From: a virus
Taxonomy: Duplodnaviria; Heunggongvirae; Uroviricota; Caudoviricetes
Virus record (IMG/VR): IMGVR_UViG_2681813321_000012
Span: 1-7,589 of that record
Strand: one strand, 5' to 3'
Length of the DNA: 7,589 nucleotides
The position numbers and the translations under genes were made by a program. Below, one piece after another: positions 1 through 7,589 of this stretch (the stretch's first letter is position 1; each line of letters starts with the position of its first letter). Under the pieces are notes generated by a model. That model ran no database searches. It saw nothing but the letters and a program-made list of their open reading frames with translations, and was not told the DNA's origin.

Positions 1-532
1 GTCGGTCCTGCACGAACGTCAGCGTCTGCCCGTTCCATACCGGCATACAGCGCATCGCCGAGCAGAAATCACTGAGCACATCCCACGCCTTGCGCTGTGT
101 GGTCAGGTACGCATTACAGGTAATGCGCGGCTCCGTGCCGCCAAAGCCATCCGGCACTGACTGGTCGCAGTACTGGCCGATGACATACAGCGCCCATTTG
201 TCCACATCCGCCGCACCAAGACGTTTCCCCATGCCGTAGCGTGGATGGGTCAGCATATCCCACAGACACCAGGCCATGTTGTTGCTGTATGCCGGTTTAA
301 ACGTTCCGTCCCAGATACCGCTGTATTGCCGCGTCTGCGGGTTATAATTCGACGGCACCTGCAGAATACGCCCGCGCAGATGATAATTACGGCTCACCTG
401 CTGGCTGCCGAACTGCTCCGAGTCCACCTGCACGCCGACCAGTGCCGTGTTCGGGTAGCCCTGTTTCACATCGATGATTTCGGTGTATGACGACCAGAGC
501 GTTTTGTTCTGCAGCTGGTCTGTGGTGCTGTC
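1..532 (-). CDS. J: Tail tip host-specificity protein J, internal fragment (partial at both ends); diverged second copy of 703-1234
   Basis: Seen in sequence: 1-532 aligns base for base with 703-1234 (offset 702, a multiple of 3), with scattered mismatches (e.g. 65 g vs 767 a). The minus-strand J frame stays open to the window edge, which is why no stop-bounded ORF is reported. Interpreted as the end of a separate contig or paralogous copy. Confidence 0.6.
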
Positions 533-542
533 NNNNNNNNNN
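533..542. other. Run of 10 N (assembly or scaffold gap placeholder)
   Basis: Ten consecutive n characters; the flanking sequence is duplicated elsewhere in the window. Confidence 0.95.
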
Positions 543-1792
543 ACAAGCTCTGTCGCCGTCTCCCAGCCGTTATTCGGGTCAATCCAGTTCACCTCAACGG
601 CATTATGGCGGTCCTTCAGGGCGCTGAAGCTGTAGCGGAACGGCGCGCCATCATCCGGCATCACCACATTACTGCGGTTATAGGTCCACACCTTATCTGA
701 TGGTCGGTCCTGCACGAACGTCAGCGTCTGCCCGTTCCATACCGGCATACAGCGCATCGCCGAGCAAAAATCACTGAGCACATCCCACGCCTTGCGCTGT
801 GTGGTCAGGTACGCATTACAGGTAATGCGCGGCTCCGTGCCGCCAAAGCCATCCGGCACTGACTGGTCGCAATTCTGGCCGATGACATACAGCGCCCATT
901 TATCCACATCCGCTGCACCAAGACGTTTCCCCATGCCGTAGCGCGGATGGGTCAGCATATCCCACAGACACCAGGCCATGTTGTTGCTGTATGCCGGTTT
1001 AAACGTTCCGTCCCAGATACCGCTGTATTGCCGCGTCTGCGGGTTATAATTCGACGGCACCTGCAGAATACGCCCGCGCAGATGATAATTACGGCTCACC
1101 TGCTGGCTGCCGAACTGCTCCGAGTCCACCTGCACGCCGACCAGTGCCGTGTTCGGGTAGCCCTGTTTCACATCGATGATTTCGGTGTATGACGACCAGA
1201 GCGTTTTGTTCTGCAGCTGGTCTGTGGTGCTGTCCGGCGTCATTCTGCGCATCCGGATATTAAACGGGCGCGGCGGCAGGTTATCCACCACCACCGAGGC
1301 CAGATACTGCGAGGTGGTTTTGCCCTTAATGGTGATGTCTTTTTCCGTCACCCAGCCACCGTTACGCTGTATCTGAACCAGCAGGCGGACTTCCGACGGA
1401 TTCCGGTCCCCCTTTGAGGTGGTTTCCACCAGTGCCTGCACACCGAAGGTAAAGCGCAGACGGTCGATGTTTGCCGACGTGATGGTCCGGGTGATCGGCG
1501 TGTCATATTTCACTTCCGTACCCAGCACCGTCTCGGAGCCGGAGGATTCAAATCCCTCCGGCGGTGTCTGCTCCTGCTCACCTGCCCGGAACACCACCGT
1601 GACACCGGATATATTGGTATTCCCCTCACTGTCCAGCACCGGCGTACTGTTCAGCAGCACGCTTTTTAATCCGTCCACCGGACCTTCAACCGGCCCTTCG
1701 CTGATGGCATCGATCACACTCAGCAGCTGCGTGGACTTCAGGTTGTCCCTCGCTTCGCGCGGGGTATGCCCCTTACTGCTTCCTTTACCCAT
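543..1792 (-). CDS. J: Tail tip host-specificity protein / central tail fibre J, N-terminal ~416 codons (3' end interrupted by the N run)
   Basis: Manual translation of the minus strand from the ATG at 1792-1790 gives MGKGSSKGHTPREARDNLKST, matching the lambda gpJ N-terminus as I recall it (MGKGSSKGHTPREAKDNLKS). A purine-rich GGAG/GAGGA motif lies just upstream (1793-1804). The ORF track shows no minus-strand ORF here, consistent with an open frame lacking a stop in the window. Gene order after I matches lambda. Confidence 0.9.
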
Positions 1793-1804
1793 TCCTCACA
1801 CTCC

Positions 1805-1833
1805 ATAAACAACAAAGCCGCCCAAAAGGCGGC
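1805..1833 (-). terminator. Rho-independent terminator downstream of the lipoprotein gene
   Basis: Minus-strand reading: GCCGCC-TTTTG-GGCGGC hairpin (plus 1817-1833, 6-bp all-GC stem, 5-nt loop) followed directly by the U-rich tract TTTGTTGTTTAT (plus 1816-1805). It sits about 25 nt after the lipoprotein stop codon. Confidence 0.55.
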
Positions 1834-1858
1834 TCATGAGTTACGACAGGATTAACTA

Positions 1859-2197
1859 TTATTTACATGCATTAACACTATCAGCAAAAATTTTTGGCGT
1901 TAATGCTGGTACACGTTCATAAAGAGTAAAACTACTGCCATTTCCTGCTTTTTTGATATCAAGCACAACATCATATCCCCCCATAGCCTGTGGAACTAAA
2001 AGGCTTACCCCATTCTCAATAGGAAGGGATGTTATAGGTGTTCCATTACCAGCCCATTGTCTGGATATGCAGCCTGACAATTCATCAATATTTTTTAATG
2101 AATTACCTTCCATTACAGGTTTTCCGGATTTTACGTAATCCAAAGATTTACATCCTGTTAAGGCAATAATCGTGCAGAATAAAATCGTTTTGTTCAT
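1859..2197 (-). CDS. Predicted outer-membrane lipoprotein of unknown function (moron between I and J), 112 aa
   Basis: The ORF track gives 1859-2209 with a TTG first codon; I prefer the in-frame ATG at 2197-2195, which yields MNKTILFCTIIALTGC... This has a typical lipoprotein signal peptide: basic N-terminus, hydrophobic core and lipobox L-T-G-C. The residue after the lipidated Cys is Lys, not Asp, so Lol sorting to the outer membrane is expected. Hand-counted GC is about 33-37% against roughly 60% or more in the neighbouring tail genes. I do not recognise the protein family. Confidence 0.75.
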   Translation of the reverse strand: MNKTILFCTIIALTGCKSLDYVKSGKPVMEGNSLKNIDELSGCISRQWAGNGTPITSLPIENGVSLLVPQAMGGYDVVLDIKKAGNGSSFTLYERVPALTPKIFADSVNACK

Positions 2198-2270
2198 ATA
2201 GCTAACCAATAGAATAATTATCAGTGTTCGATATAAATATTAAATCAGTTAGAACATGAGTAAAATAATA
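2198..2270 (-). promoter_or_regulatory. AT-rich intergenic region upstream of the lipoprotein gene; possible moron promoter
   Basis: 73-nt AT-rich spacer between the I stop (2271) and the lipoprotein ATG (2197). On the minus strand it contains a GATAAT (-10-like) hexamer at plus 2217-2222, preceded by TG two bases upstream. I found no convincing -35 or Shine-Dalgarno motif. Speculative. Confidence 0.2.
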
Positions 2271-2912
2271 TTACCGCCCAATTACCACAACCTGACCACC
2301 ATCCCCTTCATCTGCCGTGCTGATCTCCTGAGATGCCACACGTGACCCCACGCGCATTTCACCGTACAGAACAGGCAGGACATTGCCCTGGGCAACCATG
2401 TTATCCAGTGAGGAGAAATAGGTGTTCTGTTTGCCGTTATCCGTTGTCTGTGTACGGGGAGTTCTGGCTTTCGGTGCCAGCATCTGCGCCACACCACCAA
2501 GCGTCATCGCCGCACCCATTGAAAAGAGAATGTCACTGAAAGCGATACTGATCCCCGGCATCCAGATTGCCGTAGCAATCAACGCCGCACCCAGCACCGC
2601 CTGAAACACACCGCCACTTTTTGCTCCCGCAAGACGCGGCACGATGTGGATCACGGCACCATTTGCCAGCGGCTCATTAAGACGGGATGATAATTCGGTT
2701 TCTCCTGCATCCCGCCCGGCAATCCGTACCTGATACCAGCCATCGCTCAGTTTCTGACGAAACGCCGGGAGCTGTGTGGCCAGTGCCCGGATGGCTTCAG
2801 CCCCCGTTTTCACACGAAGGTCGATGCGGCGGCCAAATCGTTGCAAATCCCCGTAAAGGCAGATGCGTGCCATGCCCGGTGACGCCAGAGGGAGTGTGTG
2901 CGTCGCTGCCAT
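2271..2912 (-). CDS. I: Tail tip assembly protein I, 213 aa
   Basis: The translation MAATHTLPLASPGMARICLYGDLQRFGRRIDLRVKTGAEAIRALATQLP... matches lambda gpI as I recall it. It has a central hydrophobic Gly/Ala-rich segment and a C-terminus ending ...DEGDGGQVVVIGR. ATG at 2912 with GAGAGG about 12 nt upstream. The 5' end overlaps the 3' end of K by 103 nt in a different frame, the same overlap I recall from the lambda map. Confidence 0.9.
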   Translation of the reverse strand: MAATHTLPLASPGMARICLYGDLQRFGRRIDLRVKTGAEAIRALATQLPAFRQKLSDGWYQVRIAGRDAGETELSSRLNEPLANGAVIHIVPRLAGAKSGGVFQAVLGAALIATAIWMPGISIAFSDILFSMGAAMTLGGVAQMLAPKARTPRTQTTDNGKQNTYFSSLDNMVAQGNVLPVLYGEMRVGSRVASQEISTADEGDGGQVVVIGR

Positions 2913-3553
2913 TTGTCGGTATACCTCTCTCGTTTGCTCAGTTGTTCAGGAATATGGTGCAGCAGCTCGCCATCACCACAGTAAATAGCGGCATGATTCG
3001 GCACCGATGAACCAAAGCAGCACAGCAGCACATCGCCCGGCTGCGCCGCTGACAACGGCACCTGATACAGCCCCGTTGCCTCCAGATTATCCAGATAGAG
3101 ATTCTGACCGTGACGCCACCAGTCATCCTCACGATGAAAGTCCGGCATCTCAATCCCCGCCAGATGGTAAGCATCCCGGAACAGTGTGTAACAGTCCGTC
3201 ACCCCGTACTCAAAGCGCCGCCCGGTGAGATGCGGCACACAGCGGAACTTGTGAATCGCCCCCCGGCAGACCAGCCACCACGGCAAATCGCTCTGCACCT
3301 GTAGCCGCCGGTCAGCCTCACTCAGCCAGGGCAGACCACCGGGGTGGCTGTGGACCAGCGCCACAATCTCACCCTGCATCTCTGCCTGCAGCCAGTCCTC
3401 CGGAGCCATCCGGAAATAATCCTCCGGCTCACCGGAAATATTCACGCCGGGAAAATATCTTTCCCCCTCCGGCGTTCTCACCACGAAGCCGCACGACTCC
3501 GCTGGCGCACATCGCCGGGCGTGCGCCAGAATCGCTGATTCTGTCTCTGTCAT
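2810..3553 (-). CDS. K: Tail tip assembly protein K (MPN/JAMM-like plus NlpC/P60-like domains), 247 aa as called from the first ATG
   Basis: Translation contains H-S-H-x7-S-x2-D (HSHPGGLPWLSEAD), a JAMM/MPN metalloprotease signature, and a downstream Cys/His region (TDCYTLF ... NHAAIY) typical of NlpC/P60. The ATG at 3553 is 5 nt after the L stop. An alternative internal ATG at 3409, preceded by GGAGGA, would give the 199-aa form annotated for lambda K. Confidence 0.85.
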   Translation of the reverse strand: MTETESAILAHARRCAPAESCGFVVRTPEGERYFPGVNISGEPEDYFRMAPEDWLQAEMQGEIVALVHSHPGGLPWLSEADRRLQVQSDLPWWLVCRGAIHKFRCVPHLTGRRFEYGVTDCYTLFRDAYHLAGIEMPDFHREDDWWRHGQNLYLDNLEATGLYQVPLSAAQPGDVLLCCFGSSVPNHAAIYCGDGELLHHIPEQLSKRERYTDKWQRRTHSLWRHRAWHASAFTGICNDLAAASTFV

Positions 3554-3558
3554 GGGAT

Positions 3559-4257
3559 TTACTGCGAAAGTTTGTTAATGGAAAGGAAGCCGCCAAAGTT
3601 GCCGACGTTATTGCGAAACTTACAACCGCTCAGGCATTTGCTGCATTTATCCTTCGTGATATCGGACGTTGGCTGGTCATATTCATCCGCGACCGCCGGA
3701 CCGTGATAACCGCACTCATCGCCGCGATAGGTCCAGGTGCAGGTGTTGGCCAGCATGATACGTCCCGGAAAAACAGCGCCGTCCGTTTCCGTCGGCGTGG
3801 ACAGTACAAAGGAGGCACTGACCGCGCTCAGTTCGCTGCACTGCTCGATGCGCCAGCGGCTGATCACCTCCTGCTCCGGATCGGCGTCGCTGTTTCCGTT
3901 GACGAAATTCACCGCATCCAGAAAACGGGCGTAAACCTTACGCCTGACCACCGTTCCGCCGACCAGACTCTGCATATCTTCCGCCATGCCGGTGACCATA
4001 CCGTACAGGTTAGAAACCGTCAGCGTGGGGCGCGTACTGGTGCCTTTGCCATTCAGTTCAAAACCACTCCCCTGAATGGGATACGGCTGATACTGTCGCC
4101 CCTGCCAGGTGACCGGCTCACCTTTTTCGTTCTGCTCATTACAGAAAAAATAACGTTCTCCACCGACCTCTGTCAGGTCGATTTCCCAGAGCACCACGCT
4201 GGCAGACTGCTCCGCACGGGTGCATTCATTCAGTGTTTCCTGTCGGATATCCTGCAT
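3559..4257 (-). CDS. L: Tail tip complex protein L, 232 aa
   Basis: The translation MQDIRQETLNECTRAEQSASVVLWEIDLTEVGGERYFFCNEQ... has the same length as lambda gpL. The C-terminus carries clustered cysteines (CTWTYRGDEC ... CSKCLSGC). The start ATG overlaps the M stop (TGATG at 4259-4255). Confidence 0.95.
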   Translation of the reverse strand: MQDIRQETLNECTRAEQSASVVLWEIDLTEVGGERYFFCNEQNEKGEPVTWQGRQYQPYPIQGSGFELNGKGTSTRPTLTVSNLYGMVTGMAEDMQSLVGGTVVRRKVYARFLDAVNFVNGNSDADPEQEVISRWRIEQCSELSAVSASFVLSTPTETDGAVFPGRIMLANTCTWTYRGDECGYHGPAVADEYDQPTSDITKDKCSKCLSGCKFRNNVGNFGGFLSINKLSQ

Positions 4258-4586
4258 CAGTTCACCACCTGTTCAAACTCTGCGCTGAACTCAACACGCA
4301 GCATACTGACCCGCGACGACCATTTTGCGCAGGTCACCTTTATCTGCCGGTAGCCATAAGGCGGCGTCCACAGAAAGGCCTTCCAGCCCCCGTGCTCAGC
4401 CAGAAACGACTCCAGCGCCGCGGCCTCCCAACGGGGAACAGAAAGCGTCACGCTGTACGTTTTCAGGTCAGTGTTCAGCCCGGCAGGCGCTCGCTGGGAA
4501 TAGCCATCACCAAAGCGCACCTTTCTTACGGAAGGGGCAGAAGCCACATCCATACCGGGTTTCACTTTCCAGCGGAAGGTTTTCAT
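4257..4586 (-). CDS. M: Tail tip complex protein M, 109 aa
   Basis: The translation MKTFRWKVKPGMDV...EFSAEFEQVVN has the same length as lambda gpM. The start overlaps the stop of the upstream H fragment (ATGA at 4586-4583). Confidence 0.95.
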   Translation of the reverse strand: MKTFRWKVKPGMDVASAPSVRKVRFGDGYSQRAPAGLNTDLKTYSVTLSVPRWEAAALESFLAEHGGWKAFLWTPPYGYRQIKVTCAKWSSRVSMLRVEFSAEFEQVVN

Positions 4587-5182
4587 CGTCCACCTCCGGA
4601 GAACAGACCACCATCGCGCATCTGCCCGGTCACAACATCCATTGCCGCCTTACGGGCTACGTCATAAACAGCCTTCAGTGCCTGTGGCCCTATCTGACCG
4701 TTCGTGCCGTCGTTGTTAATCACCACATGGTTATTCTGCTCAAACGTCCCGGACGCCTGCGACCGGCTGTCCGCCATGCTGCCCGGTGTACCGACATAAC
4801 CGCCGGTGGCATAGCCGCGCATCAGCCGGTAGAGATTCCCCACGCCAATCCGTCTGGTTGCCTCCTTCGTGAAGACGAATTCACCGCGGTGAACAATTCC
4901 CGCTGGCTCATATTTGCCGCCGGTTCCCGTAAATCCTCCGGTTGCAAAATGGAATTTCGCCGCAGCTGCCTGAATGGCTGTACCGCCTGATGCGGATGCG
5001 CCGCCACCAACAGCCCCGCCAATGGCGCTACCGATACTCCCGACAATCCCCACCATTGCCTGCTTAAGCAGAATTTCTGTCATCATGGACAGCACGGAAC
5101 GGGTGAAGCTGCGCCAGTTCTGCTCACTGCCGGTCAGCATCGCTGCCATATTCTGTGCAATACCGTCAAAGGTCTGCGTGGC
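4583..5182 (-). CDS. H: Tape measure protein H, C-terminal 200 codons (5' end interrupted by the N run)
   Basis: Translation ATQTFDGIAQNMAAMLTGSEQNWRSF ... MRDGGLFSGGGR is a diverged copy of the C-terminus of the H ORF at 5952-7589. It includes a Gly/Ala-rich hydrophobic segment. The track fuses it to the L fragment on the other side of the gap as a 347-aa ORF with XXXX, which I treat as an artefact. Confidence 0.85.
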   Translation of the reverse strand, partial: ATQTFDGIAQNMAAMLTGSEQNWRSFTRSVLSMMTEILLKQAMVGIVGSIGSAIGGAVGGGASASGGTAIQAAAAKFHFATGGFTGTGGKYEPAGIVHRGEFVFTKEATRRIGVGNLYRLMRGYATGGYVGTPGSMADSRSQASGTFEQNNHVVINNDGTNGQIGPQALKAVYDVARKAAMDVVTGQMRDGGLFSGGGR

Positions 5183-5192
5183 NNNNNNNNNN
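5183..5192. other. Run of 10 N (assembly or scaffold gap placeholder)
   Basis: Ten consecutive n characters; the flanks are duplicated elsewhere in the window (offset 1369). Confidence 0.95.
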
Positions 5193-5626
5193 GCGCTCAG
5201 TTCGCTGCACTGCTCGATGCGCCAGCGGCTGATCACCTCCTGCTCCGGATCGGCGTAACTGTTTCCGTTGACGAAGTTCACCGCATCCAGAAAACGGGCG
5301 TAAACCTTACGCCGGACCACCGTTCCGCCGACCAGACTCTGCATATCTTCCGCCATCCCGGTGACCATACCGTACAGGTTAGAAACCGTCAGCGTGGGGC
5401 GCGTACTGGTGCCTTTGCCATTCAGTTCAAAACCGCTCCCCTGAATGGGATACGGCTGATACTGTCGCCCCTGCCAGGTGACCGGCTCACCTTTTTCGTT
5501 CTGCTCATTACAGAAAAAATAACGTTCTCCACCGACCTCTGTCAGGTCGATTTCCCAGAGCACCACGCTGGCCGACTGCTCCGCACGGGTGCATTCATTC
5601 AGTGTTTCCTGCCGGATATCCTGCAT
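5193..5626 (-). CDS. L: Tail tip complex protein L, N-terminal 144 codons (3' end interrupted by the N run); second copy
   Basis: Translation MQDIRQETLNECTRAEQ ... RIEQCSELS is identical to the N-terminal part of L at 3559-4257 except for one residue (Y vs D in VNGNS[Y/D]ADPEQ). Confidence 0.85.
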
Positions 5627-5955
5627 CAGTTCACCACCTGTTCAAACTCTGCGCTGAACTCAACACGTAACATACTGACCCGCGATGTCCATTTTGCGCA
5701 GGTCACCCTGATCTGCCGCCAGCCATAAGGCGGCGTCCACAGAAAGGCTTTCCAGCCCCCGTGCTCAGCCAGAAACGACTCCAGCGCCCTGGCCTCCTCG
5801 CGGGAGACAGAAAGCGTCACGCTGTACGTTTTCAGGTCAGCATTCAGCCCGGCAGGCGCACGCTGGGAATAGCCATCACCAAAGCGCACCTCCCTGACGG
5901 AAGGAGCCGATGTCACATCCATCCCGGGTTTCACTTTCCAGCGGAAGGTTTTCAT
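5626..5955 (-). CDS. M: Tail tip complex protein M, 109 aa (second, diverged copy)
   Basis: Same length and start/stop overlaps as the M gene at 4257-4586. The two proteins differ at 9 of 109 positions by my hand alignment. Confidence 0.95.
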   Translation of the reverse strand: MKTFRWKVKPGMDVTSAPSVREVRFGDGYSQRAPAGLNADLKTYSVTLSVSREEARALESFLAEHGGWKAFLWTPPYGWRQIRVTCAKWTSRVSMLRVEFSAEFEQVVN

Positions 5956-7589
5956 CGTCCACCTCCGGAGAACAAGCCACCATCACGCATCTGTGCCTGA
6001 ATTTCATCACGGGCACCCTTGCGGGCCATGTCATACACAGCCTTCAGCGCCTGTGGTCCAATCTGCCCGTTCGTGCCGTCGTTGTTAATCACCACATGGT
6101 TATTCTGCTCAAACTTCCCGGACGCCTGCGACCGGCTGTCCGCCAGACTGCCCGGTGTACCGACATAACCGCCGGTGGCATAGCCGCGCATAAGCCGGTA
6201 AAGATTCCCCACGCCAATCCGGCTGGTTGCCTCCTTCGTGAAGACAAACTCACCACGGTGAACAATCCCCGCTGGCTCATATTTGCCGCCGGTTCCCGTA
6301 AATCCTCCGGTCGCAAAATGGAATTTCGCCGCAGCTGCCTGAATGGCTGTACCGCCTGATGCGGATGCGCCGCCACCAACAGCCCCGCCAATGGCGCTAC
6401 CGATACTCCCGACAATCCCCACCATTGCCTGCTTAAGCAGAATTTCTGTCATCATGGACAGCACGGAACGGGTGAAGCTGCGCCAGTTCTGCTCACTGCC
6501 GGTCAGCATCGCTGCCATATTCTGTGCAATACCGTCAAAGGTCTGCGTGGCCACGCTTTTTACCTGCGAAAAACTGTCCGTCGCACTTTCCGCCCACTCA
6601 CCCCAGCCGGACTTCATCCCGGCCATCCAGCTTCCACGAAGCTGCTCCTCCGCAGACCAGGTGTTCTTCAGTGCAGATGTGGCCTTCGCCAGCGCATCCG
6701 GATTATCACCGTACACCTCACGAAGGCGCTGCTCTTCCGACTCCCGCTGCGCCTGACGGTCGGTGAGTCCGCGGGCTTTTGCGCTGATTGCCGCCTGCTT
6801 CGCACTCTGCTGCTGTTCAAACCGCGCCGCCTGCTGTGCCAGCTCATTCAGCCGTTTCTGGTGTTCAACCTTGTCGCCCAGCTCAGCCAGCTGGCGTTTG
6901 TACTCCAGCGTCTCTTTCTCATGAGCCAGCAGGGATTTTTCCTGCTCAGATAACTGCCGTTTCGTGGCGGCCTCTTTCAGGACCACATACTGATTTTCCG
7001 CTTTCCATAAATCCCGGCGCTGCTGGCTGATTTTTTCATTCGCACCGCTGTGCTTCTCCAGCGTCCTGAGCTCAGTTTCAAGCGACAGCATGGCTGCATG
7101 CGCCCGGTCTTCCTGGCGCTCACCGGCAGACACCTTCACACCTGACGGCTTTTTCTGCGTCGATTCATAATCCTTTTTTGCCGACGCCATCAGCGTGTTG
7201 TAATCCGCCTGCAGGATTTTTCCGTCTTTCAGGGCCTTATTCAGCTCTTCCTGCCGGGCGGTATATTTCTCCAGTGGCGTCAGCAGGCGCTCATACGCCT
7301 TCTGCGCCTCTCCGGTATACTTCAGCTGTGACGACTCACGCTCAGCCCTGTCCCTTGCCGCCAGTTCACCGGCTTTTTCCATATCCGACTGCAGCGTGGC
7401 CGCTGCCAGACCCAGACGGGCATTTTCCCGGTCATCCCATGCGCCCTGAAGGTTGGCCCGGAAAGAGGAGGTTTTACCGCGGCGCTGGCTCCGGCTCTGG
7501 TACCACTGCCATTTTTTATCCGCCTCATCAAATGCCTTCTGCGCACTGGCGAGCATATCCGCTGAGGATTCCGGACGACCGATATCCAG
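5952..7589 (-). CDS. H: Tape measure protein H, C-terminal 545 codons (5' end beyond the window)
   Basis: The frame is open from the stop at 5952-5954 to the window edge. The Met at 7556 in the track is only the first in-window Met, not the true start (lambda H is about 853 aa as I recall). Translation is rich in E/K/Q/A/L heptad-like sequence (coiled coil) with a Gly/Ala-rich hydrophobic segment near the C-terminus and the ending ...MRDGGLFSGGGR. The gene order H-M-L matches lambda. Confidence 0.9.
   Translation of the reverse strand: MDIGRPESSADMLASAQKAFDEADKKWQWYQSRSQRRGKTSSFRANLQGAWDDRENARLGLAAATLQSDMEKAGELAARDRAERESSQLKYTGEAQKAYERLLTPLEKYTARQEELNKALKDGKILQADYNTLMASAKKDYESTQKKPSGVKVSAGERQEDRAHAAMLSLETELRTLEKHSGANEKISQQRRDLWKAENQYVVLKEAATKRQLSEQEKSLLAHEKETLEYKRQLAELGDKVEHQKRLNELAQQAARFEQQQSAKQAAISAKARGLTDRQAQRESEEQRLREVYGDNPDALAKATSALKNTWSAEEQLRGSWMAGMKSGWGEWAESATDSFSQVKSVATQTFDGIAQNMAAMLTGSEQNWRSFTRSVLSMMTEILLKQAMVGIVGSIGSAIGGAVGGGASASGGTAIQAAAAKFHFATGGFTGTGGKYEPAGIVHRGEFVFTKEATSRIGVGNLYRLMRGYATGGYVGTPGSLADSRSQASGKFEQNNHVVINNDGTNGQIGPQALKAVYDMARKGARDEIQAQMRDGGLFSGGGR

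What the first reader, a model, noticed from the sequence alone, without database searches (positions are those of the whole stretch)
3824..6551. Second N gap: about 1.36-kb L-M-H segment present twice, creating a chimeric 347-aa L/H ORF
5193-6551 is colinear with 3824-5182 (offset 1369). As a result the window appears to encode M twice, plus an L N-terminal fragment and an H C-terminal fragment. The reading frame is preserved across the 10 N, so the ORF track fuses L N-terminus and H C-terminus into the 347-aa protein at 4583-5626 containing XXXX. That is not a real protein. As with the first gap, the geometry (the end of one block overlaps the start of the next) points to an assembly join, probably caused by two similar lambdoid prophages.
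Basis: seen in the sequence. Interest (0 to 1): 0.55.

Follow-up and report, generated by a model that had tools for sequence, protein, structure and literature searches.

The report
Scaffold join duplicating prophage tail genes
The apparent 1.36-kb duplication of phage tail genes, and the 347-aa "L/H fusion protein" it creates, come from joining two draft-assembly contigs across 10 Ns; the two copies belong to two different lambda-like prophages, so this is an ordinary assembly artefact and not biology.

Summary
Window 3824-5182 and 5193-6551 are colinear without gaps at offset 1369 (1359 nt, 72 mismatches, 94.7%). They are separated only by the N run 5183-5192. The 347-aa ORF at 4583-5626 (minus strand) is L residues 1-144 + XXXX + the last 199 residues of H.

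In one closed genome (E. coli FDAARGOS_1059, NZ_CP066032.1), copy 1 is 100% identical to a prophage at 4.44 Mb ("A"). Copy 2 is 100% identical to a different prophage at 4.72 Mb ("B"), about 280 kb away. Right after copy 2, the window returns to A-type sequence (6552-7589, 1 mismatch). Deleting 5183-6551, and likewise 533-1234 at the first gap, leaves 5518 nt that match prophage A with 3 mismatches and an open H frame.

No junction of this kind occurs in 5,426 complete E. coli genomes or 50,697 phage records. Closed relatives all carry single-copy J-I-K-L-M-H. The contig to the right of the gap looks chimeric (B then A, switching inside a 248-nt stretch identical in both prophages). No closed genome matches the switch region at 99% or better.

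Verdict: not a real feature. Interest is low.

The parts
3824..5182 (-). Copy 1 of the 1359-nt segment (A allele). It holds the 5' 434 nt of L (the N-terminal 144 codons of the full L gene 3559-4257), M, and the last 200 codons of H, and it ends block 2.
   Evidence: 100% identical to L003 9994-11352, prophage A of NZ_CP066032.1. Ungapped 94.7% identity to 5193-6551.
5183..5192 (.). Run of 10 N marking the scaffold or contig join.
5193..6551 (-). Copy 2 of the segment (B allele). It holds the L N-terminal fragment, M, and the H C-terminal 200 codons, and it starts block 3.
   Evidence: 100% identical to L002 5001-6359, prophage B of NZ_CP066032.1, about 280 kb from prophage A. Only 94.8% identical to prophage A.
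6552..7589 (-). Rest of block 3, an internal part of H. It is A-type sequence and is the true continuation of block 2's end at 5182.
   Evidence: 99.9% identical (1 mismatch, at 7398) to L003 11353-12390, which directly follows L003 11352. Only 94.9% identical to prophage B.
6313..6560 (.). A 248-nt stretch identical in prophages A and B. Block 3 switches from B-type to A-type inside it, and block 2 ends within the same stretch (4944-5182).
   Evidence: A/B mismatch list (no differences at offsets 1120-1367). Identity profile.
4583..5626 (-). Artefactual 347-aa ORF made of L(1-144, B allele) + XXXX + H(last 199 aa, A allele).
   Evidence: Translation. Pfam domains are truncated at the gap. No gene with exactly this product is on record.
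5193..5626 (-). L N-terminal fragment (B allele), cut off by the contig start.
   Evidence: Pfam Phage_tail_L, profile positions 1-115 of 206, E=8e-58.
4583..5182 (-). H (tape measure) C-terminal fragment (A allele), cut off by the contig end.
   Evidence: Pfam Tape_meas_lam_C, profile positions 29-75 of 76. Reads open into 6552-7589 when 5183-6551 is removed.
4257..4586 (-). M, minor tail protein (A allele), 109 aa.
   Evidence: Pfam Phage_min_tail, E=3.5e-38. PHROG 14 and 21806, minor tail protein. Annotated as phage tail protein WP_000847355.1 in L001 and L003.
5626..5955 (-). M, minor tail protein (B allele), 109 aa. It differs from the A allele at 27 nt (12 synonymous and 9 non-synonymous codons).
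   Evidence: Pfam Phage_min_tail, E=1.8e-39. Codon comparison.
3559..4257 (-). L, minor tail protein, full length (A allele), 232 aa.
   Evidence: Pfam Phage_tail_L, positions 1-206 of 206, E=2e-101. Annotation in L001.
5952..7589 (-). H tape-measure gene as written in block 3: B-type for the last 200 codons and A-type upstream. It is cut by the window end.
   Evidence: No closed E. coli genome matches the switch region 5960-6960 at 99% or better (best 98.9%).
533..1234 (.). First N run (533-542) plus 692 nt of a variant J allele. The geometry is the same as at the second gap.
   Evidence: 1-532 is 100% identical to prophage A. All 9 mismatches between block 2 and prophage A lie at 572-1244. 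Removing 533-1234 restores colinearity with prophage A.

Best explanation
The window is a piece of a draft E. coli scaffold covering the tail module of one lambda-like prophage. On the minus strand the gene order is H-M-L-K-I-(small lipoprotein ORF)-J. Three contigs have been strung together with 10-N spacers. The source genome carries at least two lambdoid prophages whose tail genes are about 95% identical, interrupted by stretches of exact identity. Contig 2 (543-5182, prophage 'A') stops inside a 248-nt stretch that is identical in both prophages. Contig 3 (5193-7589) starts in the paralogous prophage 'B', runs through that same identical stretch, and leaves it on the A-type path. Because contig 3's distal part is the true continuation of contig 2, the two were placed next to each other. 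Because their overlapping ends differ at 72 positions, they could not be merged, so a minimal N spacer was inserted. The result on paper is a tandem repeat of L(N-terminal)-M-H(C-terminal), a second M gene, and an ORF that runs by chance in frame through the Ns.

What is shown: the allele assignments, the restored colinearity, and the absence of any such junction in closed genomes.

What is inferred: how the assembler and scaffolder behaved, and whether contig 3 is a mis-joined chimera or ends in a collapsed two-copy repeat.
For: (1) The repeat is a suffix-prefix overlap. Both of its ends coincide with block ends flanking the Ns.
(2) Copy 1 is 100% identical to prophage A (L003), and copy 2 is 100% identical to prophage B (L002). 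Both prophages lie in the same closed chromosome NZ_CP066032.1, at about 4.447 and 4.726 Mb.
(3) Window 6552-7589 is A-type (1 mismatch in 1038) and directly follows the end of copy 1 in the closed genome (L003 11352 to 11353).
(4) The sequence 1-532 + 1235-5182 + 6552-7589 (5518 nt) matches prophage A, with its IS679 insertion removed, at 3 mismatches. H reads open across the 5182|6552 join.
(5) The closed relatives L001, L002 and L003 have single-copy J-I-K-L-M-H-T-G.
(6) A 300-nt junction query without Ns finds no single-piece match in 5,426 complete E. coli genomes or 50,697 phage records. The only two full-coverage places are L'/H' deletion remnants in the normal order. The junction pattern also has 0 hits in IMG/VR, where the normal H junction 5182|6552 has 4.
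(7) No closed genome contains block 3's B-to-A switch region at 99% or better, whereas block 2 has full-length matches at 99.5-99.8%.
(8) Block 3 starts exactly one base after an A/B variant position, and block 1 ends exactly one base before a variant position (1235). This is what is expected when contigs end at branch points of an assembly graph.
(9) The differences between the two copies are mostly synonymous and both M genes are intact, so these are real paralogous alleles and not sequencing errors.
(10) Homologous prophage tail regions of about 97.7% identity, and the failure of short reads to resolve them, are documented for E. coli (PMC10925052).
Against: No reads, coverage data or assembly metadata are available, so the artefact is inferred from comparative evidence and not observed directly. 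The reference strain is not the source strain: its prophage A carries an IS679 in gene K that the window lacks. The source strain could therefore differ structurally. Block 2 ends 9 nt before the end of the A/B identical stretch and not exactly at it. The variant J allele at 543-1244 has no 100% match in any closed genome (best 99.0%), so the origin of that allele is not pinned down.
Confidence: 0.94

Rival explanations
1. Both contigs are individually correct. They come from two different prophages of the source strain, and one of them is a natural recombinant carrying B-type L-M-H(3' end) and A-type H(5' part). They were placed side by side by reference-guided contig ordering or by scaffolding. 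The 10 N stand for an unknown, possibly very large, distance. In this reading the H 5' region is a collapsed two-copy repeat and not a mis-join.
For: Lambdoid prophages are mosaics, and the A and B alleles share a 248-nt identical stretch in which homologous recombination could occur. One closed genome (H83) comes within 98.9% of the switch region, so partial recombinants exist. E. coli genomes carry a median of 3 and up to 15 copies of this tail module.
Against: No closed genome has the exact B-to-A configuration (none at 99% or better), while each half occurs at 100% and 99.9% in separate prophages of one genome. For the finding itself the consequence is the same: the tandem duplication and the fusion ORF are still not real.
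Confidence: 0.3
2. A genuine tandem partial duplication in the source genome. The order on the minus strand would be H-M-L' followed by 'H-M-L-K, created by illegitimate recombination between two prophages or sister chromosomes. The Ns would hide a short unresolved junction, and a real L-H fusion gene might exist.
For: The sequence as written shows exactly this arrangement, and the frame is open across the gap. Natural rearrangements of the L-M-H region do exist, for example the L'/H' deletion remnants in strains E2 and Z1323CEC0010.
Against: The two copies differ by 5.3%, and each is 100% identical to a separate prophage in a closed genome. A recent tandem duplication would give near-identical copies. 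The junction would have to fall exactly at both contig ends. No such junction is found in 5,426 complete genomes or 50,697 phage records. Both domains are cut mid-fold. Removing the insert restores a known sequence at 99.95% identity. The open frame is a 1-in-3 coincidence.
Confidence: 0.02

Closest known systems
Repeat-induced contig breaks and scaffold joins at paralogous lambdoid prophages in short-read E. coli assemblies
   Same: Two or more prophages carry about 95-98% identical tail-gene regions. The contigs end inside stretches of exact identity, an N spacer sits at the join, and the overlapping ends are left unmerged. PMC10925052 describes 10-kb tail-gene regions of 97.7% identity between prophages of one chromosome, and the loss of prophage context with short reads.
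   Different: Here the second contig appears to cross from one prophage to the other, so the scaffold contains both alleles in series instead of a plain gap. The software that produced the join is unknown.
Bacteriophage lambda tail-tip module H-M-L-K-I-J
   Same: Gene order, sizes and Pfam families match: Tape_meas_lam_C, Phage_min_tail, Phage_tail_L, Prok-JAB + NLPC_P60, Lambda_tail_I, and the GpJ domains. Lambda itself (J02459) matches the L arm at 99.3%.
   Different: Lambda and all closed relatives examined have one copy each of L and M. This module also has an extra low-GC 112-aa lipoprotein ORF between I and J.
Natural L'/H' deletion remnants in degraded prophages (E. coli E2 NZ_CP104509.1 and Z1323CEC0010 NZ_CP148445.1)
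   Same: They involve truncated L and H genes lying next to each other.
   Different: There the order is the normal one, M is deleted, and both genes are annotated as pseudogenes. That is the opposite of a duplication.

Membership tests
Assembly or scaffold join artefact (unmerged paralogous contig ends) | A run of N sits exactly at the junction of the two copies | tested here: met
   The 10 N at 5183-5192 lie between copy 1's last base and copy 2's first base.
Assembly or scaffold join artefact (unmerged paralogous contig ends) | Suffix-prefix geometry: the repeat is bounded on both sides by contig ends | tested here: met
   3824-5182 is the last 1359 nt of block 2, and 5193-6551 is the first 1359 nt of block 3. 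The first gap has the same geometry.
Assembly or scaffold join artefact (unmerged paralogous contig ends) | The two copies map to different loci in a closed genome, and removing one copy restores a known contiguous sequence | tested here: met
   Copy 1 is 100% identical to prophage A and copy 2 is 100% identical to prophage B of NZ_CP066032.1. The de-duplicated 5518 nt has 3 mismatches to prophage A.
Assembly or scaffold join artefact (unmerged paralogous contig ends) | Read evidence: abnormal depth, or no reads spanning the junction | not testable with these tools
   No reads or assembly metadata are available.
Genuine tandem segmental duplication | A sequenced novel junction (end of the unit joined to the start of the unit) | tested here: not met
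   The junction consists of Ns in the window. No single-piece match to the inferred junction is found in 5,426 complete E. coli genomes or 50,697 phage records, and there are 0 pattern hits in IMG/VR against 4 for the normal junction. The genome-contig scan was uninformative because its positive control also found nothing.
Genuine tandem segmental duplication | The copies derive from one another at the same locus | tested here: not met
   The copies are 5.3% divergent, and each is identical to a different prophage.
Lambda-like tail module (gpH, gpM, gpL) | Family-specific domains in lambda gene order | tested here: met
   Pfam hits are above the gathering scores for H, M, L, K, I and J. RefSeq annotation of near-identical loci agrees.
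Natural L-H fusion protein | An uninterrupted coding sequence with whole domains, found in independent genomes | tested here: not met
   The ORF contains XXXX. Phage_tail_L is cut at profile position 115 of 206, and Tape_meas_lam_C starts at position 29 of 76. No gene with exactly this product is on record. No junction is found in closed genomes.

The most novel reading that the evidence does not exclude
The source strain really carries a tandem partial duplication of L-M-H, produced by illegitimate exchange between two resident lambdoid prophages. This would give a second functional M gene and an L(N-terminal)-H(C-terminal) fusion gene, with the true junction hidden under the 10 N.
Probability: 0.02. 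Interest if true: 0.3.

Novelty: not a real feature. Interest (0 to 1): 0.06.

Why it matters
It matters only as quality control. If taken at face value, the scaffold would add to gene catalogues a spurious 347-aa "L/H" protein, a spurious extra M gene, and truncated L and H genes. It would also suggest a tail-gene duplication that does not exist. Block 3 seems to hop between prophages inside a 248-nt identical stretch. That is a reminder that contigs in prophage-rich E. coli drafts can be chimeric even away from the N gaps. Allele-level analyses of tail genes from such drafts, such as host-range or mosaicism studies, should rely on closed genomes.

Tried and rejected
(a) I looked for a real H-fragment/L-fragment junction with a 150+150-nt query without Ns. 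There was no single-piece hit in complete E. coli genomes or in phages. The two full-coverage places turned out to be deletion remnants in the normal gene order.

(b) I scanned for an exact junction pattern allowing a 0-30-nt gap. It gave 0 hits in genome contigs and 0 in viral contigs. The positive control, the normal 5182|6552 junction, gave 4 viral contigs but 0 genome contigs. The genome contigs negative therefore carries no weight.

(c) I tried to identify the source record by looking up the 347-aa product. No gene with exactly this product is on record.

(d) I looked for the donor of the variant J allele at 543-1244. No closed genome matches at 100% (best 99.0%), so its origin stays open.

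(e) I looked for a closed genome carrying block 3's B-to-A configuration. None matches at 99% or better.

(f) I considered sequencing error as the source of the 72 differences. I rejected it because the differences are mostly synonymous, both M ORFs are intact, and copy 2 matches a real prophage at 100%.

(g) I did not run the large protein-database searches or structure prediction, because the DNA-level evidence had already settled the question.
Full report
**Observation**

The window contains two runs of exactly 10 N, at 533-542 and 5183-5192. They divide it into three blocks: 1-532, 543-5182 and 5193-7589.

Window 3824-5182 and 5193-6551 align without gaps at offset 1369. The alignment covers 1359 nt with 72 mismatches (94.7% identity). 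The first 64 nt and the last 239 nt are identical, and the most divergent patch is at 4606-4660.

The repeat is the last 1359 nt of block 2 and the first 1359 nt of block 3. Both of its boundaries are therefore set by block ends.

All genes lie on the minus strand and were confirmed by Pfam and by RefSeq annotation of near-identical loci:
- H (tape measure), 5952-7589, cut by the window end
- M, 5626-5955
- L N-terminal fragment, 5193-5626
- the 10 N
- H C-terminal fragment, 4583-5182
- M, 4257-4586
- L, 3559-4257
- K, 2810-3553
- I, 2271-2846
- a 112-aa ORF, 1859-2197
- J, from 1792 downwards

The 347-aa ORF 4583-5626 translates to L(1-144)+XXXX+H(last 199 aa). The frame is kept because 444 nt separate the L start from the first base of the H fragment. 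The Phage_tail_L domain is cut at profile position 115 of 206, and Tape_meas_lam_C starts at position 29 of 76.

**What it is**

Megablast against 5,426 complete E. coli genomes shows that this tail module is extremely common and usually present in several copies. It occurs in 4,537 genomes, with a median of 3 and up to 15 places per genome.

The best closed relative is E. coli FDAARGOS_1059 (NZ_CP066032.1). It carries the module in several prophages. I fetched two of them:
- prophage A, around 4.44 Mb (L003)
- prophage B, around 4.72 Mb (L002), about 280 kb away

Base-by-base comparison gives a clean picture:
- Block 1 (1-532) is 100% A-type.
- Block 2 is 100% A-type from 1245 to 5182, apart from an IS679 insertion that the reference has in K and the window lacks. 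All 9 of its mismatches to A lie at 572-1244.
- Copy 2 (5193-6551) is 100% B-type and only 94.8% A-type.
- The remainder of block 3 (6552-7589) is A-type again, with 1 mismatch in 1038. It is only 94.9% B-type.

In the closed genome the base matching 5182 (L003 11352) is followed directly by the base matching 6552 (L003 11353). I cut out 533-1234 and 5183-6551, that is, each N run plus the variant allele that follows it. This leaves 5518 nt that match prophage A, with the IS removed, at 3 mismatches. H is an uninterrupted open frame across the 5182|6552 join.

The window is therefore the prophage-A tail module with two paralogous-allele segments spliced in behind N spacers.

**Is a real tandem junction possible?**

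I joined the 150 nt before the gap to the 150 nt after it and searched with that query.
- No complete E. coli genome and no phage record contains it as one piece.
- The two records with full coverage in two pieces (strains E2 and Z1323CEC0010) have the L part upstream of the H part, in the normal order, with M deleted. Both genes are annotated there as pseudogenes. These are deletion remnants, not duplications.
- An exact pattern for the junction, allowing 0-30 intervening bases, has no match in IMG/VR. The normal 5182|6552 junction has four.
- The same scans of the species-representative genome collection found nothing for either pattern, so they are uninformative.
- All closed loci inspected have single-copy J-I-K-L-M-H-T-G.

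**How the artefact probably arose (inference)**

Prophages A and B are about 95% identical in this region, with interspersed stretches of exact identity.
- Block 3 begins exactly one base after an A/B variant position, at the start of a 64-nt identical stretch.
- Block 1 ends exactly one base before a variant position (1235).
- Block 2 ends inside a 248-nt identical stretch (4944-5182 plus 9 nt).
- Block 3 changes from B-type to A-type within that same stretch (6313-6560).

This is the behaviour of contigs that end, or are mis-threaded, at branch points of an assembly graph built over paralogous repeats.

The distal part of contig 3 is the real continuation of contig 2, so a scaffolder using read pairs, or a reference-guided contig orderer, would place them next to each other. 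Their overlapping ends differ at 72 sites, so they could not be merged, and a minimal N spacer was written instead.

No closed genome contains the B-to-A switch region (5960-6960) at 99% or better; the best is 98.9%. Block 2, in contrast, has full-length matches at 99.5-99.8%. This favours a chimeric contig 3. A strain-specific natural recombinant, with the 5' part of H collapsed from two copies, cannot be excluded without reads. That is rival 1, and it does not change the verdict on the duplication.

The 72 differences are real allelic differences and not sequencing errors:
- L fragment: 7 synonymous and 1 non-synonymous codon
- M: 12 synonymous and 9 non-synonymous
- H fragment: 18 synonymous and 10 non-synonymous
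- Both M ORFs are intact.

**Comparison with what is known**

The module is a standard lambda-type tail-tip gene set. Lambda itself matches the L arm at 99.3%.

The difficulty of resolving homologous lambdoid prophages with short reads is well documented for E. coli, as is the presence of about 10-kb tail-gene regions of 97.7% identity between prophages of one chromosome (PMC10925052).

Several assemblers and scaffolders write a short fixed N run when contigs are linked but cannot be merged. That statement is from my own recollection and was not verified here.

**Verdict**

The duplication exists in the sequence as written, but it is not a biological feature. The second M, the truncated L and H, and the 347-aa L/H ORF are by-products of a scaffold join across paralogous prophage sequence. 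Novelty is "not a real feature" and interest is low. The only residual novel reading, a genuine tandem partial duplication with a real L-H fusion, has a probability of about 2%.

Noticed in passing
window 1-1244 (N run 533-542): The first N gap has the same geometry as the second. Window 1-532 matches 703-1234 at 98.9% (offset 702). Block 1 is 100% prophage-A type. Block 2 begins with a variant J allele whose 9 differences from A all lie at 572-1244. No closed E. coli genome matches that variant at 100% (best 99.0%), so its donor prophage is unidentified; it may be a consensus of several paralogs.
   Followed up: partly
window 1859-2197, minus strand (low-GC region about 1800-2270): A 112-aa ORF lies between I and J in a 35% GC island, against 58% for the rest of the window. 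Its N-terminus MNKTILFCTIIALTGC looks like a lipoprotein signal peptide with a lipobox. It has no Pfam hit and matches PHROG 914 (unknown function, E=7e-33). Closed genomes annotate it as hypothetical protein WP_001332187.1. It looks like a moron-type insertion in the tail module. Prophage B (L002) lacks it.
   Followed up: partly
window 4606-4660 and 5975-6029 (H C-terminus), and the M genes 4257-4586 / 5626-5955: The A and B alleles differ most in a short patch near the C-terminal end of H. Seven of the ten amino-acid changes fall at residues 175-186 of the last 200. They also differ in M (9 amino-acid changes in 109), while the flanking L and the upstream part of H are nearly identical. This is a localised mosaic patch. 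It might reflect co-variation of interacting tail-tip parts.
   Followed up: no
window 3415-3422; L003 6881-9592: The closest closed relative (FDAARGOS_1059, prophage A) has an IS679 (IS66 family) inserted in gene K at the position matching window ~3415-3422, with an 8-bp overlap of the two alignment pieces (target-site duplication). The window has K intact. The source strain is therefore close to, but not the same as, that strain.
   Followed up: partly
L004 3737-6642 (NZ_CP104509.1); also NZ_CP148445.1: Two poultry E. coli genomes carry a degraded prophage in which M, the start of L and the end of H are deleted. This leaves adjacent L and H pseudogenes.
   Followed up: partly
window 2271-2912, minus strand: The mechanical ORF list gives a 213-aa ORF for gene I starting at 2912. 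RefSeq annotation of identical loci starts I at the position matching 2846 (191 aa), overlapping the end of K by 37 nt. The true start was not examined.
   Followed up: no
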